64,000 bases of DNA from Candidatus Hermodarchaeum yapensis. Its GTDB lineage: Archaea; Asgardarchaeota; Hermodarchaeia; Hermodarchaeales; Hermodarchaeaceae. The notes under the pieces are model-generated. The model was not told where the DNA came from and did not search any database. It saw only the letters and a program-made list of their open reading frames with translations. Position 1 is the stretch's first letter; each line of letters opens with the position of its first letter. The position numbers were made by a program, and so were the translations under genes. Where the stretch lies: assembly GCA_016840405.1 (NCBI GenBank), contig JAEOSK010000009.1:1-64000 (forward strand). Direction: 5' to 3'. Positions 7,515 through 56,003 of this stretch are shown piece after piece.

Positions 7515-7629
7515 GCGGGGGTACCCGAGCACGGTCTATGGAACTTGATAAGAAGTTCCGACTAAAGGGGCAGGACTGAGGCTCCTGTGGTGTAGACCTT
7601 CGTGGGTTCAAATCCCACCCCCCGCACCA
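7515..7629 (+). tRNA. tRNA-Leu(GAG) with a 27-nt D-arm intron (7539-7565, position 21/22)
   Basis: GCGGGGG/CCCCCGC acceptor, CAGGA-CTGAGGC-TCCTG anticodon arm, long variable arm, TTCAAAT loop, encoded CCA; BHB helix GGTC/GACT with TAT and AAA bulges. Confidence 0.93.
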
Positions 7630-7685
7630 TTCTCAGTCTACTCAATCTTTTGTTGGTTTTCATAGCGAAAACTGCTCCAATTTAT

Positions 7686-7906
7686 CAAAAAAGGAGAAGA
7701 TCCCATTCCTGCGGGGCGGAGACGAGTTGTGGAGTTTAAATCGTCCACTGAGAACCTCTCTACAAGGTCCTGGTTCTAGTGGCCGACATCCAAGGTCACT
7801 ATGACCGGACAACATCGCCGGAACGGCTAGCAGATCCTGTGGACCAGTCGACAATGATCGATGGGATGAAGCAGGAAGCCCAGCCCTTCAAGGCGAGGCA
7901 GTTCAC
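7686..7906 (+). mobile_element. Non-autonomous IS200/IS605-type mini-element with omega-RNA-like scaffold (copy 1)
   Basis: Follows TTTAT; ends GAAGCAGGAAGCC-hairpin-GTTCAC; homologous to 55685-55900; no tnpA or tnpB. Confidence 0.75.
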
Positions 7907-7920
7907 GGAGCTATCAAACC

Positions 7921-8847
7921 GTGTCCCGAAAAATGTTGGATCAGTTTGGTTTGCATTTGCAAAGTATCAAATCTGTTCCAGGAGTTGAAAACTCTGTATT
8001 AGTCCAGCGTGATGGCTACCCGATTTCCAGTAGTGGTGTGTGGTTATCAGAAAATGAAATTTTTGGATTGTCTTCTTCTGCTGCAGCGATTCTCTCAGTA
8101 GCCCAACGACTCCATGAAGATCTGTATTATGTCTTAATAGAAGGAGAACGCAGTAAATTTTTACTGGCTACATTACCCCGTGCCGTAAATTATTTTATTA
8201 CTGTAACTACACAGAGTAACAGCAATCTTGGTGCTTTATTGTTACAATTGGAACGGACAATTACTCATCTTGATGAAGCCCTTTGGAATGAGCATTTCAT
8301 TCCTCCTTTACGCACATTTGAACAGAATGAAAGAGCCAAGATATTTGATTCTTTTAATGTGCGAAAAGGCCCCCGAAGAACGTGGTCAACAGGAACATTG
8401 AATCTTACAATAACCGAAAATGCTGCTCAGCAAATTACTGATATTGTTTCTGACTTTCTGCACGCCTTACCTTCAGCTCAAACAGGAGAAGTTTGTCTTG
8501 AAGGGGGATACTTAATTCCTACACAAAGATACAACGAAGGCGTTCGTATTCGGAATTCAACTCTTACATATACGCTTTTTGACACTTCCAGAAAAGTTGC
8601 CCAATTAGTAAAACGAACTAGCATTCTACAAGTGCTATGCGATTGCGGTACAAGTCAGCATTTTATTTACAAACTTCAAGGAGGATTGTTTAGCACTTTC
8701 ATAAGAAAAGATTCGACGCGGCTAGGATTACTCCGTTTGATAATTCCCAATTTTATTGCAGAAATTGAATCCGTACTGCAAAAAGCACCAATAGCACAAC
8801 GACCTAACCTCGATGTGGACGGTTTTTTGGAGGCAATAGCTCGATGA
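7921..8847 (+). CDS. Tandem Roadblock/LC7 (MglB-like) domain protein
   Basis: 'VPGVENSVLVQRDGYPISS' Roadblock start and 'NLGALL'; degenerate second repeat ending 'RLGLLRL'. Confidence 0.8.
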   Translation: MSRKMLDQFGLHLQSIKSVPGVENSVLVQRDGYPISSSGVWLSENEIFGLSSSAAAILSVAQRLHEDLYYVLIEGERSKFLLATLPRAVNYFITVTTQSNSNLGALLLQLERTITHLDEALWNEHFIPPLRTFEQNERAKIFDSFNVRKGPRRTWSTGTLNLTITENAAQQITDIVSDFLHALPSAQTGEVCLEGGYLIPTQRYNEGVRIRNSTLTYTLFDTSRKVAQLVKRTSILQVLCDCGTSQHFIYKLQGGLFSTFIRKDSTRLGLLRLIIPNFIAEIESVLQKAPIAQRPNLDVDGFLEAIAR

Positions 8848-9748: not shown

Positions 9749-10339
9749 TTGTTAATAGATTGGAGTCAACATATTATTCAAACAAAGATTGTTTATTATG
9801 GACCAGCGATGAGTGGAAAAACCGAGAGCATACGTGCCCTCTTTAAGCATCTCAATATTTTATCTCGGCTTGAATCAATTGAGACAACATCAGGTCGTAC
9901 CCTCTTTTTTGATTACGGACCGATTGAACTTGTCCATGGTGATTGGATTATTCAGATTCATATTTGGTCTGCAACCGGACAGGACTACTATGCAGAAACC
10001 CGTTCTACTGTTTTAGCAGGAACAGATGGTATTGTATTTGTTGCCGATTCTAACCCGAGTTTGATACATGAAAATTTACGATGTTGGGAGGAACTGAAAG
10101 GGTTTTTTGGACCACAACTTTCAACAAATATTCCCGTAGTTTTCGCTTTGAATAAACGTGATTTGTGGCCGGCTATCAATCAGTTTGATTTTGTAAATGC
10201 CTTGGAGTTGAATGGGACCTCTCTAATCTTTGAAACAGTTGCTACACAAGGAACGTTCGTCATTGAAGTTTTACAAGAGATGTTACGAAACATTTTGCTG
10301 GGCTCGAATCTTGCACAACCCAAAAAGATAGGTACATAG
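9749..10339 (+). CDS. MglA-like small GTPase
   Basis: KIVYYGPAMSGKT, GRTLFFDY, ATGQ, NKRD. Confidence 0.88.
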   Translation: MLIDWSQHIIQTKIVYYGPAMSGKTESIRALFKHLNILSRLESIETTSGRTLFFDYGPIELVHGDWIIQIHIWSATGQDYYAETRSTVLAGTDGIVFVADSNPSLIHENLRCWEELKGFFGPQLSTNIPVVFALNKRDLWPAINQFDFVNALELNGTSLIFETVATQGTFVIEVLQEMLRNILLGSNLAQPKKIGT

Positions 10340-55567: not shown

Positions 55568-55644
55568 TGGTGGGCCGGACGGGCTTCGAACCCGCGACCT
55601 CTCGGTTATCAGCCGAGTGCCCTACCAAGCTAGGCCACCGGCCC
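55568..55644 (-). tRNA. tRNA-Ile(GAT)
   Basis: Complete cloverleaf, CTCGG-CTGATAA-CCGAG, CCA. Confidence 0.96.
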
Positions 55645-55684
55645 ACATGAAGTACGTGGATGCGCGTAGACTCTTTTCGTTTAT

Positions 55685-55900
55685 CAAAAGCTTTGAGACG
55701 ACTTTTTCTTTAGGTCGGGGATGAATCATGGAGGTTAAATACGTTTCTGCAATTCATTTAGTGAGGTCCTAGTCGGGGTCCGAGAACCAAGGAACCTGAC
55801 TGGGCAACATCGCCGGAACGGCGAGTAGAGCCTGTGGACCAGTTGACAGTGGTCGATGGTATGAAGCAGGAAGCTCCATCCTTCGGATGGGGTAGTTCAC
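55685..55900 (+). mobile_element. Non-autonomous IS200/IS605-type mini-element with omega-RNA-like scaffold (copy 2)
   Basis: Follows TTTAT; shares CAACATCGCCGGAACGGC, CCTGTGGACCAGT, ATGAAGCAGGAAGC and the GTTCAC end with copy 1. Confidence 0.75.
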
Positions 55901-55928
55901 ATGGATTTTGCCGAAGCATATTGGGTGT

Positions 55929-56003
55929 TGGTGGAGTGGCCGGGATTTGAACCCGGGGCCTCGTGTGTGCGAGACACGCGATCTACCACTGATCTACCAC
56001 CCC
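55929..56003 (-). tRNA. tRNA-Ala(CGC)
   Basis: G3:U70 pair, CGTGT-CTCGCAC-ACACG, CCA. Confidence 0.94.

What the first reader, a model, noticed from the sequence alone, without database searches (positions are those of the whole stretch)
7686..7926. ORF-less IS200/IS605 mini-element that looks like a self-contained omega-RNA gene (copy 1)
The 221-bp element follows TTTAT and has a left-end segment, a TATA-like TTTAAAT about 25 nt before a conserved ~130-nt block (from AGGTCCT), and a TnpB-type right end (GAAGC-hairpin-TTCAC). Compared with copy 2, stems are kept while sequence diverges (e.g. TCGACAATGATCGA vs TTGACAGTGGTCGA), implying selection on RNA structure. Inference: a trans-acting guide RNA for a TnpB encoded elsewhere, with guide GGAGCTATCAAACCGTGTCC and predicted TAM TTTAT. 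The guide reads into the start of the Roadblock operon, so the element may also supply its promoter.
Basis: partly seen in the sequence, partly recalled or inferred. Interest (0 to 1): 0.7.

Follow-up and report, generated by a model that had tools for sequence, protein, structure and literature searches.

The report
Gene-less transposon carrying TnpB guide RNA
This 221-base insertion in an Asgard archaeon is a protein-less miniature of an IS200/IS605 jumping element; it keeps the element's promoter and the guide-RNA scaffold of the RNA-guided nuclease TnpB, which is a well-supported new example of an already described kind of element.

Summary
Window 7686-7906 (+) is a discrete 221-bp mobile element. 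A congeneric genome with 95-96% identical flanks has the exact empty site, TTTAT directly followed by GGAGCTATC, with no target duplication. Copy 2 (55685-55900) has clean empty sites in two relatives.

The genome holds 14 such ORF-less copies. Twenty more were read in six congeneric MAGs and four on metagenome contigs.

Each copy has:
- a left end shared with full-length tnpB elements;
- a conserved TATA box (TTTAAAT), with the 21-23 bases after it (21 in most copies) ending at GAGGTCC, where full-length elements have the tnpB ATG;
- a ~143-nt RNA with strong covariation (23 of 36 pairs compensatory);
- an end at GTTCAC.

Eight tnpB genes in the genome embed a homologous RNA in their 3' ends and use the same T-T/C-T/G-A-T target. 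At least one (401 aa) looks intact.

The best reading is a PATE-type, non-autonomous IS200/IS605 element that is a self-contained omega-RNA gene served in trans by TnpB. This kind is known (Dyall-Smith 2011; Altae-Tran 2021/2023; Meers 2023), and this scan has met it before in other Asgard genomes.

Open points:
- no matching TnpA transposase was found;
- mini and tnpB-embedded scaffolds are only ~54% identical;
- transcription is untested.

The parts
7681..7685 (+). Target pentanucleotide TTTAT (TnpA target, predicted TnpB TAM). This is flank, not element.
   Evidence: The empty site in G002 reads ...CCAATTTAT|GGAGCTATC.... The same T-T/C-T/G-A-T motif lies left of most minis and of the full-length tnpB elements.
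7686..7906 (+). Copy 1 of the 221-bp ORF-less IS200/IS605 mini-element (PATE type).
   Evidence: It is precisely absent from G002 and from the other congeners compared, with no target duplication. It scores 137.9 bits with model R1. The only mechanical ORFs (45-69 aa) run out into unrelated flanks.
7686..7734 (+). Left end: variable leader, a GAGAAGA motif and an imperfect subterminal palindrome (about 7701-7722).
   Evidence: It aligns with the left ends of 7 full-length tnpB elements and of all minis. The palindrome is kept with quite different sequences in other copies. In copy 1 itself it is weak (-2.7 kcal/mol, z = 0.68).
7735..7741 (+). Archaeal TATA box TTTAAAT, inherited from the tnpB promoter.
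   Evidence: It is conserved in 12 of 14 own copies and 18 of 20 copies in relatives. Full-length elements have TTCAAATA at the same place, 21-23 bases before the tnpB ATG.
7764..7906 (+). Omega-RNA scaffold (~143 nt) ending at the right-end boundary.
   Evidence: On 37 sequences 94.1% of cells are paired and 23 of 36 pairs show compensatory changes, reached by 0 of 500 shuffles. The single-sequence MFE is -57.3 kcal/mol, z = -3.6. It is homologous to the RNA embedded in the 3' ends of tnpB genes.
7878..7906 (+). Right-end hairpin (arms 7878-7885 and 7892-7899) plus terminal AGTTCAC.
   Evidence: This is helix 6, in which 6 of 8 pairs have compensatory changes. All copies end at GTTCAC, after which homology stops.
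7907..7926 (+). Predicted guide, which is flanking host DNA.
   Evidence: It directly follows TTTAT in the G002 empty site, with 1 mismatch in 20. The genome has no second TAM-flanked match at up to 2 mismatches in 16.
7657..7665 (+). Native TATA box of the downstream operon (TTTTCATAG here, TTTTTATAG in 7 congeners).
   Evidence: It is conserved about 48-56 bases upstream of the ATG in 7 congeners that lack the element. The insertion point falls near the predicted transcription start.
7933..8847 (+). Roadblock/LC7-domain gene, first gene of the operon into which the element reads.
   Evidence: Pfam PF03259, E = 2.2e-06. A small GTPase gene lies at 9749-10339.
55685..55900 (+). Copy 2 of the mini-element (216 bp): TATA-like GTTAAATA at 55734-55741, RNA from about 55763, guide from 55901.
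   Evidence: It scores 152 bits with R1. The empty sites in G005 and G002 read ...CGTTTAT|ATGGATTTTGCC.... It lies between tRNA-Ile and tRNA-Ala.

Best explanation
Copy 1 is a non-autonomous, protein-less IS200/IS605-type transposon (a PATE).

Origin: it descends from a tnpB-only (IS1341-type) element by an internal deletion. The deletion removed the tnpB reading frame and left the left end, the tnpB TATA box, the omega-RNA scaffold and the right end. The TATA box now sits so that transcription should begin at the first base of the scaffold, where full-length elements have the leaderless tnpB ATG. The element is therefore a compact, self-promoted guide-RNA gene.

How it works: its RNA runs across the right-end boundary, so the flanking 16-20 bases become the guide. 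A TnpB protein made by one of the full-length elements in the same genome would load this RNA. It would cut any copy of the locus from which the element has been excised (TTTAT followed by the guide), and repair from an occupied sister copy would restore the element. This is the retention and homing mechanism shown for TnpB by Meers et al.

New insertions, 3' of TTTAT and without duplication, require a Y1 TnpA transposase supplied in trans.

Shown here: the boundaries, mobility, family size, homology to tnpB elements, RNA covariation and promoter conservation.

Inferred: transcription, loading by TnpB, cleavage, and the source of the transposase.

A side effect at this locus is that the Roadblock/GTPase operon must now be transcribed through at least the 3' part of the element.
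For: 1. Precise empty sites without target duplication, 3' of TTTAT, for copy 1 (G002) and copy 2 (G005 and G002).
2. There are 14 ORF-less copies in the genome. Twenty more were read in six congeneric MAGs and four on metagenome contigs, all with the same left end, TATA box and RNA and with no ORF between them. Some copies are orthologous between species and others are lineage-specific.
3. Full-length elements share the left-end motifs and have their TATA box 21-23 bases before the tnpB ATG. In the minis the same spacing leads to GAGGTCC.
4. Eight tnpB genes carry an R1 match (94-109 bits) over their 3' ends. The stop codon lies inside G-TAG-TTCAC, 5 bases from the right end, in the five copies whose frame runs to the end.
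5. Compensatory differences between the mini and tnpB-embedded versions keep the same helices. The unpaired motifs (GGAAC loop, AGAGCCTGTGGA, GAAGCAGGAA, GTAGTTCAC) are shared.
6. Covariation: 94.1% of cells paired and 23 of 36 pairs compensatory, against 13.2 +/- 2.1 in shuffles and 7-17 in slid controls.
7. The C59 tnpB (401 aa) has all three Pfam TnpB domains. By eye it also has the RuvC D/E/D residues and the CxxC zinc-finger motifs.
8. Minis and tnpB elements have the same TAM-like left flank.
9. The guides match only their own flanks, as expected for a homing or retention guide.
10. Published work describes this kind of element: PMC10055086, PMC10691335, PMC3119063.
Against: - No Y1 TnpA was found in this MAG, which is 86% complete. 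Only 1 of 19 MAGs of the family has one, and it sits in an IS605 element with no R1 match.
- The mini scaffold is only ~54% identical to the tnpB-embedded scaffolds over the last 150 nt and is ~18 nt longer at the 5' side. Compatibility with the resident TnpB is therefore unproven.
- No tnpB with a mini-type scaffold was found in any collection searched.
- There are no expression data.
- Copy 1's own left-end palindrome folds weakly.
- LE and RE hairpins do not covary within elements (p ~0.25).
- Orthologous copies are only slightly better conserved in the RNA (92-95%) than in the flanks (82-91%), from two pairs.
Confidence: 0.85

Rival explanations
1. The copies are inert deletion remnants of tnpB elements. 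They are carried along, or passively moved by a transposase, with no RNA function. The conserved stems reflect only the single-stranded DNA hairpins the transposase needs, plus recent common ancestry.
For: Core deletions of IS605-type elements are common in archaea and can yield mobile remnants (PMC3119063). Helix 6 is also the right-end DNA hairpin. Orthologous pairs show only a small excess of conservation in the RNA part. There are no expression data.
Against: Helices 1, 3 and 5, which are not transposon ends, show compensatory changes in 16 of 21 pairs. Copies are only 75% identical on average, so the pattern is not simply recent ancestry. The TATA box and its spacing to the RNA start are kept in about 30 of 34 copies, although transposition has no need for them. 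The junction is the same in all copies, which points to one long-lived lineage rather than repeated decay.
Confidence: 0.07
2. The element has been taken over by the host as a regulatory module. Its promoter, or TnpB-dependent processing of the scaffold, now controls the Roadblock/GTPase operon. More generally, the family acts as portable promoters.
For: Only 26 bases separate the right end from the ATG, which is too short to hold a promoter, so the operon's transcripts must start in or upstream of the element. The native TATA box carries a T-to-C change seen only in this genome. Copy C73:34373 also has an ATG starting 27 bases after its right end, and several other copies lie 40-90 bases upstream of same-strand ORFs.
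Against: The insertion is specific to this lineage and absent from a 95-96% identical relative, so there has been no long-term retention at this locus. Many copies face convergent genes or tRNA 3' ends, including copy 2. The native TATA box is still present upstream. Conservation is on the RNA scaffold, not on features specific to the downstream gene.
Confidence: 0.05
3. The RNA guides something other than the resident tnpB subfamily. Candidates are a different TnpB clade among the ~17 other tnpB genes, or a catalytically inactive TnpB-like regulator. In that case the similarity to the eight tnpB 3' ends is ancestral only.
For: Identity between the mini and embedded scaffolds is ~54%, with a different and longer 5' helix. 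No tnpB with a mini-type scaffold was found.
Against: The other tnpB subfamilies match the model far worse, at 20-26 bits. The shared unpaired motifs and the shared TAM point to the 8-member subfamily. In the genus, all seven genomes with minis also have hits of the tnpB-embedded type; this was judged by score and 130-156-nt length and not checked ORF by ORF.
Confidence: 0.03

Closest known systems
PATEs (palindrome-associated transposable elements) of IS200/IS605, defined in Haloquadratum walsbyi (Dyall-Smith et al. 2011, PMC3119063) and seen in Geobacillus stearothermophilus (Meers et al. 2023, PMC10055086)
   Same: Both are too short to encode a protein. They have no terminal inverted repeats and no target duplication, and they have subterminal palindromes like those of IS605-type elements. 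They arise by core deletion of tnpB elements. Strain-specific insertions occur even where tnpA is missing or broken. Meers et al. state that PATEs often encode omega RNAs that need TnpB in trans.
   Different: This lineage lives in Asgard (Hermodarchaeota-type) archaea. Its deletion junction places the tnpB TATA box at promoter distance from the first base of the scaffold. It forms its own clade, ~54% identical to the tnpB-embedded RNAs.
Stand-alone omega RNAs of OMEGA systems (Altae-Tran et al. 2021, as summarised in Altae-Tran et al. 2023, PMC10691335)
   Same: Both are mobilised guide-RNA loci without an effector or transposase, found in genomes that also hold effector-bearing loci. [quoted passage not shown]
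   Different: That work was experimental and, from my memory, on bacterial systems. Here trans use is inferred, and the promoter is of the archaeal TATA type.
ISDra2 / IS1341-type TnpB-omega RNA elements (TAM TTGAT)
   Same: The scaffold is embedded in the tnpB 3' end and ends at the right end, with the guide taken from the flank. A pentanucleotide TAM lies 5' of the left end; TTTAT here, with TTGAT in one full-length copy.
   Different: The element in the finding has lost tnpB entirely. The comparison with ISDra2 rests on my own knowledge and was not tested here.
RAGATH-18-derived reRNAs of IS607 TnpB (Rfam RF03064; PMC11061315)
   Same: There is a weak local resemblance at 7836-7877 (28 bits, E = 0.004). 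Both are TnpB guide scaffolds.
   Different: The score is below the gathering threshold of 44.9 bits. No serine recombinase is present. The insertion signature is of the Y1 IS200/IS605 type.

Membership tests
IS200/IS605 non-autonomous element (PATE) | Precise insertion without target-site duplication | tested here: met
   Empty sites in G002 for copy 1, and in G005 and G002 for copy 2, join the flanks exactly.
IS200/IS605 non-autonomous element (PATE) | Insertion 3' of a conserved 4-5-nt target sequence | tested here: met
   TTTAT lies left of both window copies. A T-T/C-T/G-A-T motif lies left of most of the 14 minis, the 20 copies in relatives and the 7 full-length elements.
IS200/IS605 non-autonomous element (PATE) | Subterminal imperfect palindrome at the right end and no terminal inverted repeats | tested here: met
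   In helix 6, 6 of 8 pairs are compensatory. The ends (CAAAA... and ...GTTCAC) are not inverted repeats.
IS200/IS605 non-autonomous element (PATE) | Subterminal imperfect palindrome at the left end | tested here: inconclusive
   A palindrome is visible in most copies, with different sequences such as CCCGTCC/GGGCGGG, TTCAAT/ATTGAA and ACATAATT/AGTTTTGT. However, RNAalifold gives no consensus and copy 1's own version folds weakly.
IS200/IS605 non-autonomous element (PATE) | Too short to encode a protein, with no conserved ORF | tested here: met
   The element is 221 bp. The only ORFs (45, 64 and 69 aa) cross into flanks that are unrelated between copies.
IS200/IS605 non-autonomous element (PATE) | A Y1 (HUH) TnpA with matching ends available in trans | tested here: not met
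   PF01797 has no match in this 86%-complete MAG. One match occurs among 19 family MAGs, in an element without an R1 match. Absence from incomplete MAGs is not proof of absence.
TnpB omega RNA (OMEGA guide RNA) | Scaffold ends at the right-end boundary and the guide is the adjacent flank | tested here: met
   All copies lose homology right after GTTCAC. The flank equals the sequence next to the TAM in the empty sites.
TnpB omega RNA (OMEGA guide RNA) | Homology to the RNA encoded over the 3' end of tnpB genes | tested here: met
   R1 hits of 94-109 bits lie over the 3' ends of 8 tnpB ORFs. The helices are kept by compensatory changes.
TnpB omega RNA (OMEGA guide RNA) | Conserved secondary structure supported by covariation | tested here: met
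   One search gives 15 of 36 pairs compensatory on 15 sequences. One search gives 23 of 36 on 37 sequences, reached by 0 of 500 shuffles. The second alignment was fitted to the model, which favours the structure.
TnpB omega RNA (OMEGA guide RNA) | Transcribed and bound by TnpB, and directs TAM-dependent DNA cleavage | not testable with these tools
   No transcriptome or biochemistry is available. Only promoter conservation and an intact-looking TnpB bear on it.
RAGATH-18 / IS607 reRNA (RF03064) | Score at or above Rfam's gathering threshold | tested here: not met
   The score is 28 bits against a threshold of 44.9, over 42 nt only. There was no hit in the gathering-threshold search.

The most novel reading that the evidence does not exclude
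The mini elements may be an independent, long-lived lineage of guide-RNA genes. No tnpB anywhere searched carries their scaffold. They keep inserting in a genus where a Y1 transposase is visible in only 1 of 15 MAGs. This would imply either an unrecognised route of mobilisation (for example a virus-borne or otherwise hidden transposase) or a host-level role. Because the TAM resembles an archaeal TATA core and copy 1 landed at the transcription start of a Roadblock/GTPase operon, such elements could routinely rewire 5' leaders and put host operons under TnpB-dependent RNA processing.
Probability: 0.1. Interest if true: 0.7.

Novelty: new member of a known kind. Interest (0 to 1): 0.36.

Why it matters
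This is a clean, fully delimited natural example of a stand-alone TnpB guide-RNA gene in Asgard archaea. It comes with exact empty sites, a defined TAM (TTTAT), a defined guide, a predicted primary 5' end and a candidate partner nuclease. That makes it a ready test case for trans-loading of TnpB and for a minimal, promoter-to-scaffold omega-RNA design. It also repeats an old puzzle from haloarchaea: IS605-type elements and PATEs that move although no working tnpA is visible. It does not change current concepts.

Tried and rejected
1. Rfam at gathering thresholds gave no hit on the element. At permissive thresholds there was only a sub-threshold RAGATH-18 match, so membership was rejected.
2. 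A second, TAM-flanked target for any of 23 guides was sought in the genome. None was found at up to 2 mismatches in 16, so a regulator aimed at a distant locus is not supported.
3. Within-element co-variation of left and right hairpins was not significant (self 6.46 vs non-self 6.25, p ~0.25).
4. RNAalifold on the left-end region gave no consensus structure.
5. A serine recombinase (IS607-type) as alternative transposase was not found.
6. The one TnpA in the family (G013:C208) lies next to a 379-aa ORF, and the locus has no match to the RNA model.
7. A tnpB with a mini-type scaffold was sought by exact core pattern in 185,579 species genomes and in JGI metagenomes. Only ORF-less copies were returned.
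8. The idea that TTTAT is itself the operon's TATA box was rejected. The conserved TATA box lies about 21 bases further upstream.
9. The sigma-70 promoter/terminator scanner was not used, because the host is an archaeon.

Full report
**What is in the sequence**

The window comes from an archaeal MAG: 2.7 Mb, 77 contigs, 86% complete. Its congeners carry submitter labels of Asgard archaea, mostly Candidatus Hermodarchaeota.

At 7681-7685 lies TTTAT, and the repeat unit runs from 7686 to 7906. In order, the unit contains:
- a short A-rich leader;
- a GAGAAGA motif;
- an imperfect palindrome (about 7701-7722);
- GTGGAG-TTTAAAT (TATA-like, 7735-7741);
- 23 non-conserved bases;
- a block from 7764/7765 to 7906 that ends in GAAGC, a hairpin and AGTTCAC.

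Copy 2 lies at 55685-55900, between tRNA-Ile and tRNA-Ala. It also follows TTTAT and ends in GTTCAC. The two copies are 85-88% identical in the 3' block and much less so elsewhere. Probes from the block are expected 0.00 times by chance.

**Family size and anatomy**

BLAST found 15 related places in the genome. A covariance model (R1), built from these, found 23 matches at 84 bits or more.
- Fourteen matches (122-162 bits) are ORF-less units of about 205-225 bp with the same layout.
- Eight matches (94-109 bits) lie over the 3' ends of tnpB reading frames.
- One (C73:58850-58989, 83.7 bits) is a shorter derivative without the palindrome and TATA box.

In every copy homology stops exactly after GTTCAC.

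Twenty further high-scoring matches were fetched from six congeneric MAGs, and four came from metagenome contigs. All are again left end, TATA box and RNA with no ORF in between.

**Mobility and boundaries**

A congener, G002, has flanks 95-96% identical to the window. It lacks the 221 bp and reads ...CCAATTTAT|GGAGCTATCAAACCGTGTCA....

The other congeners compared at this locus are also empty. For copy 2, G005 and G002 read ...CGTTTAT|ATGGATTTTGCC....

There is no target duplication and the ends are not inverted repeats. Insertion is 3' of a pentanucleotide. This is the signature of Y1-transposase (IS200/IS605) peel-and-paste transposition, as I know it from the literature and as summarised in PMC10055086.

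Some copies are orthologous between species: C60:13823 with a G002 copy, and C14:111772 with a G005 copy. Both window copies are lineage-specific. The family is therefore old and has also been active recently.

**Relation to tnpB elements**

Full-length elements of the 8-member tnpB subfamily share several features with the minis:
- the same left flank motif (TTTAT, with variants TTGAT, CTTAT and TTTGT);
- the same GAGAAGA motif;
- an equivalent imperfect palindrome;
- GATGAATC-nCGGAC-TTCAAATA;
- the tnpB ATG 21-23 bases further on, a spacing typical of a leaderless archaeal mRNA.

In the minis the same spacing leads from TTTAAAT(A) to GAGGTCC, the first base of the RNA block. The minis are thus one lineage derived by a deletion running from the tnpB start to the 5' edge of the omega-RNA scaffold. 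The tnpB promoter should now start transcription directly at the scaffold.

In the five tnpB copies whose frame runs to the end, the stop codon is the TAG inside G-TAG-TTCAC, 5 bases from the right end. The scaffold there is therefore coding sequence, spanning the RuvC-III DRDxNAAxNI motif and the C-terminal tail.

The state of individual tnpB copies varies:
- The C59 copy is a 401-aa ORF with the HTH_OrfB_IS605, OrfB_IS605 and Cas12f1-like TNB domains. By eye it also has intact D/E/D and CxxC motifs.
- C67 has ATA in place of the start ATG.
- C36 has TGA at codon 3.
- Several other copies are truncated.

**RNA structure**

RNAalifold on 15 sequences gives six helices, and 15 of 36 pairs have compensatory changes.

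On 37 sequences from seven genomes:
- 94.1% of cells are paired;
- 23 of 36 pairs have changes on both sides, against 13.2 +/- 2.1 in shuffles (0 of 500 reach the observed value) and 7-17 when partners are slid;
- helices 1, 3 and 5, which are not transposon ends, contribute 16 of these pairs.

This alignment was fitted to the model, which favours the structure. The earlier MAFFT-based result points the same way.

Copy 1 alone folds to -57.3 kcal/mol (z = -3.6).

Minis are on average 75% identical to each other, tnpB-embedded scaffolds 82%, and minis versus embedded only 53.5%. Even so, the helices are kept by compensatory differences; examples are CCGAGG/CCTCGG versus TCGCCG/CGGCGA, and GCT...AGC versus CCA...TGG. 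The unpaired motifs are shared.

The minis are more G+C-rich (56.6% against 51.8%, genome 44.7%). This fits release from coding constraint.

**Function**

The most economical reading is the one in the literature for such elements. The RNA is loaded by a TnpB made elsewhere in the genome. It directs cleavage of TTTAT-plus-guide, which is the excised (empty) allele, so that repair restores the element (PMC10055086; PMC10691335).

Several findings here are consistent with this:
- None of 23 guides has a second TAM-flanked match in the genome.
- Minis and tnpB elements share the TAM.
- In the genus, all seven genomes with minis also have matches of the tnpB-embedded type, and the genomes with no embedded-type match have no minis. 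This classification rests on score and match length and was not checked ORF by ORF. Related genomes are also not independent samples.

Transcription, loading and cleavage are inferred.

**The transposase**

No Y1 TnpA (PF01797) and no serine recombinase (PF00239) were found in this MAG. Only one TnpA occurs among 19 MAGs of the family, and it sits in an IS605 element that does not match the RNA model.

MAGs are incomplete and insertion sequences often fail to assemble, so this is a gap rather than a contradiction. The same discrepancy was noted for Haloquadratum PATEs (PMC3119063).

**The Roadblock operon**

The downstream gene (7933-8847) has a Roadblock/LC7 domain, and a small GTPase gene follows at 9749-10339.

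In 7 congeners without the element, a conserved TTTTTATAG lies about 48-56 bases upstream of the ATG. This predicts a transcription start close to the TTTAT|GGAGC junction. The junction itself sits in the loop of a small conserved inverted repeat, GCTCC-AATTTAT-GGAGC.

The element has therefore landed at about the start of the transcription unit. Only 26 bases separate the right end from the ATG. In this genome the operon mRNA must begin at the native TATA box (7657-7665, here TTTTCATAG, with a T-to-C change not seen in the relatives) or at the element's own TATA box. Either way it carries scaffold and guide sequence in its leader.

It is not general for the family, since copy 2 and several other copies face convergent genes.

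**Comparison with what is known, and verdict**

The element meets the tested defining features of a PATE-type IS200/IS605 derivative and of a TnpB omega RNA. It lacks an identifiable transposase partner. It fails the Rfam threshold for RAGATH-18.

ORF-less IS200/IS605 elements are described in archaea (PMC3119063). Omega-RNA-bearing PATEs and stand-alone omega RNAs acting in trans are also described (PMC10055086, PMC10691335).

Earlier notes of this scan report similar gene-less omega-RNA elements in other Asgard genomes. I did not test those notes; two of them led me to the papers I then read.

Three specific points are new here: the promoter-to-scaffold junction, the separate mini clade, and the insertion at an operon start. 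I rate this a new member of a known kind, well documented and of modest interest.

Noticed in passing
window 7515-7629 (+): An intron-containing tRNA-Leu with encoded CCA. Default ARAGORN and Rfam at gathering threshold both miss it. ARAGORN with introns allowed finds it with a 16-nt intron. The anticodon call (AAG, against GAG by eye) is uncertain.
   Followed up: partly
window 7672-7685 + 7907-7911, and relatives L018-L028: The insertion target TTTAT sits in the loop of a small inverted repeat, GCTCC-AATTTAT-GGAGC. The repeat is kept, with varying sequence, in congeners between the operon's TATA box and its ATG. It may be a 5'-leader hairpin of the Roadblock operon and perhaps a preferred single-stranded target.
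   Followed up: partly
window 7657-7665: The conserved TATA box of the Roadblock operon reads TTTTTATAG in 7 congeners and TTTTCATAG only in this genome, the one carrying the insertion.
   Followed up: no
G000:C73:58850-58989 (L038:951-1090): A shorter derivative. TTTAT and about 11 bases of left end are fused directly to the RNA scaffold, with no palindrome or TATA box and with a deletion in helix 5. It is probably a decayed or further-deleted copy.
   Followed up: partly
G000:C14:139699-144548: Three tnpB genes lie within 5 kb on one strand, two of them with the homologous omega RNA. The genome has about 25-30 tnpB matches in all and no tnpA.
   Followed up: no
L046 (G013:C208:1-2307): This is the only Y1 tnpA found in 19 MAGs of the family. 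It lies divergent to a 379-aa ORF, probably a tnpB of another subfamily, and the locus has no match to RNA model R1.
   Followed up: partly
window 55568-56003: Copy 2 is wedged between tRNA-Ile and tRNA-Ala, both on the minus strand. In the empty alleles the target reads TTTATAT, a TATA-like sequence about 36-42 bases upstream of tRNA-Ile on the other strand, so the insertion may have altered that tRNA's promoter.
   Followed up: no
L039 (G000:C40:32700-35800): A full-length tnpB element of the same subfamily is also inserted directly beside a tRNA gene, so elements of this family recur next to tRNA genes.
   Followed up: no
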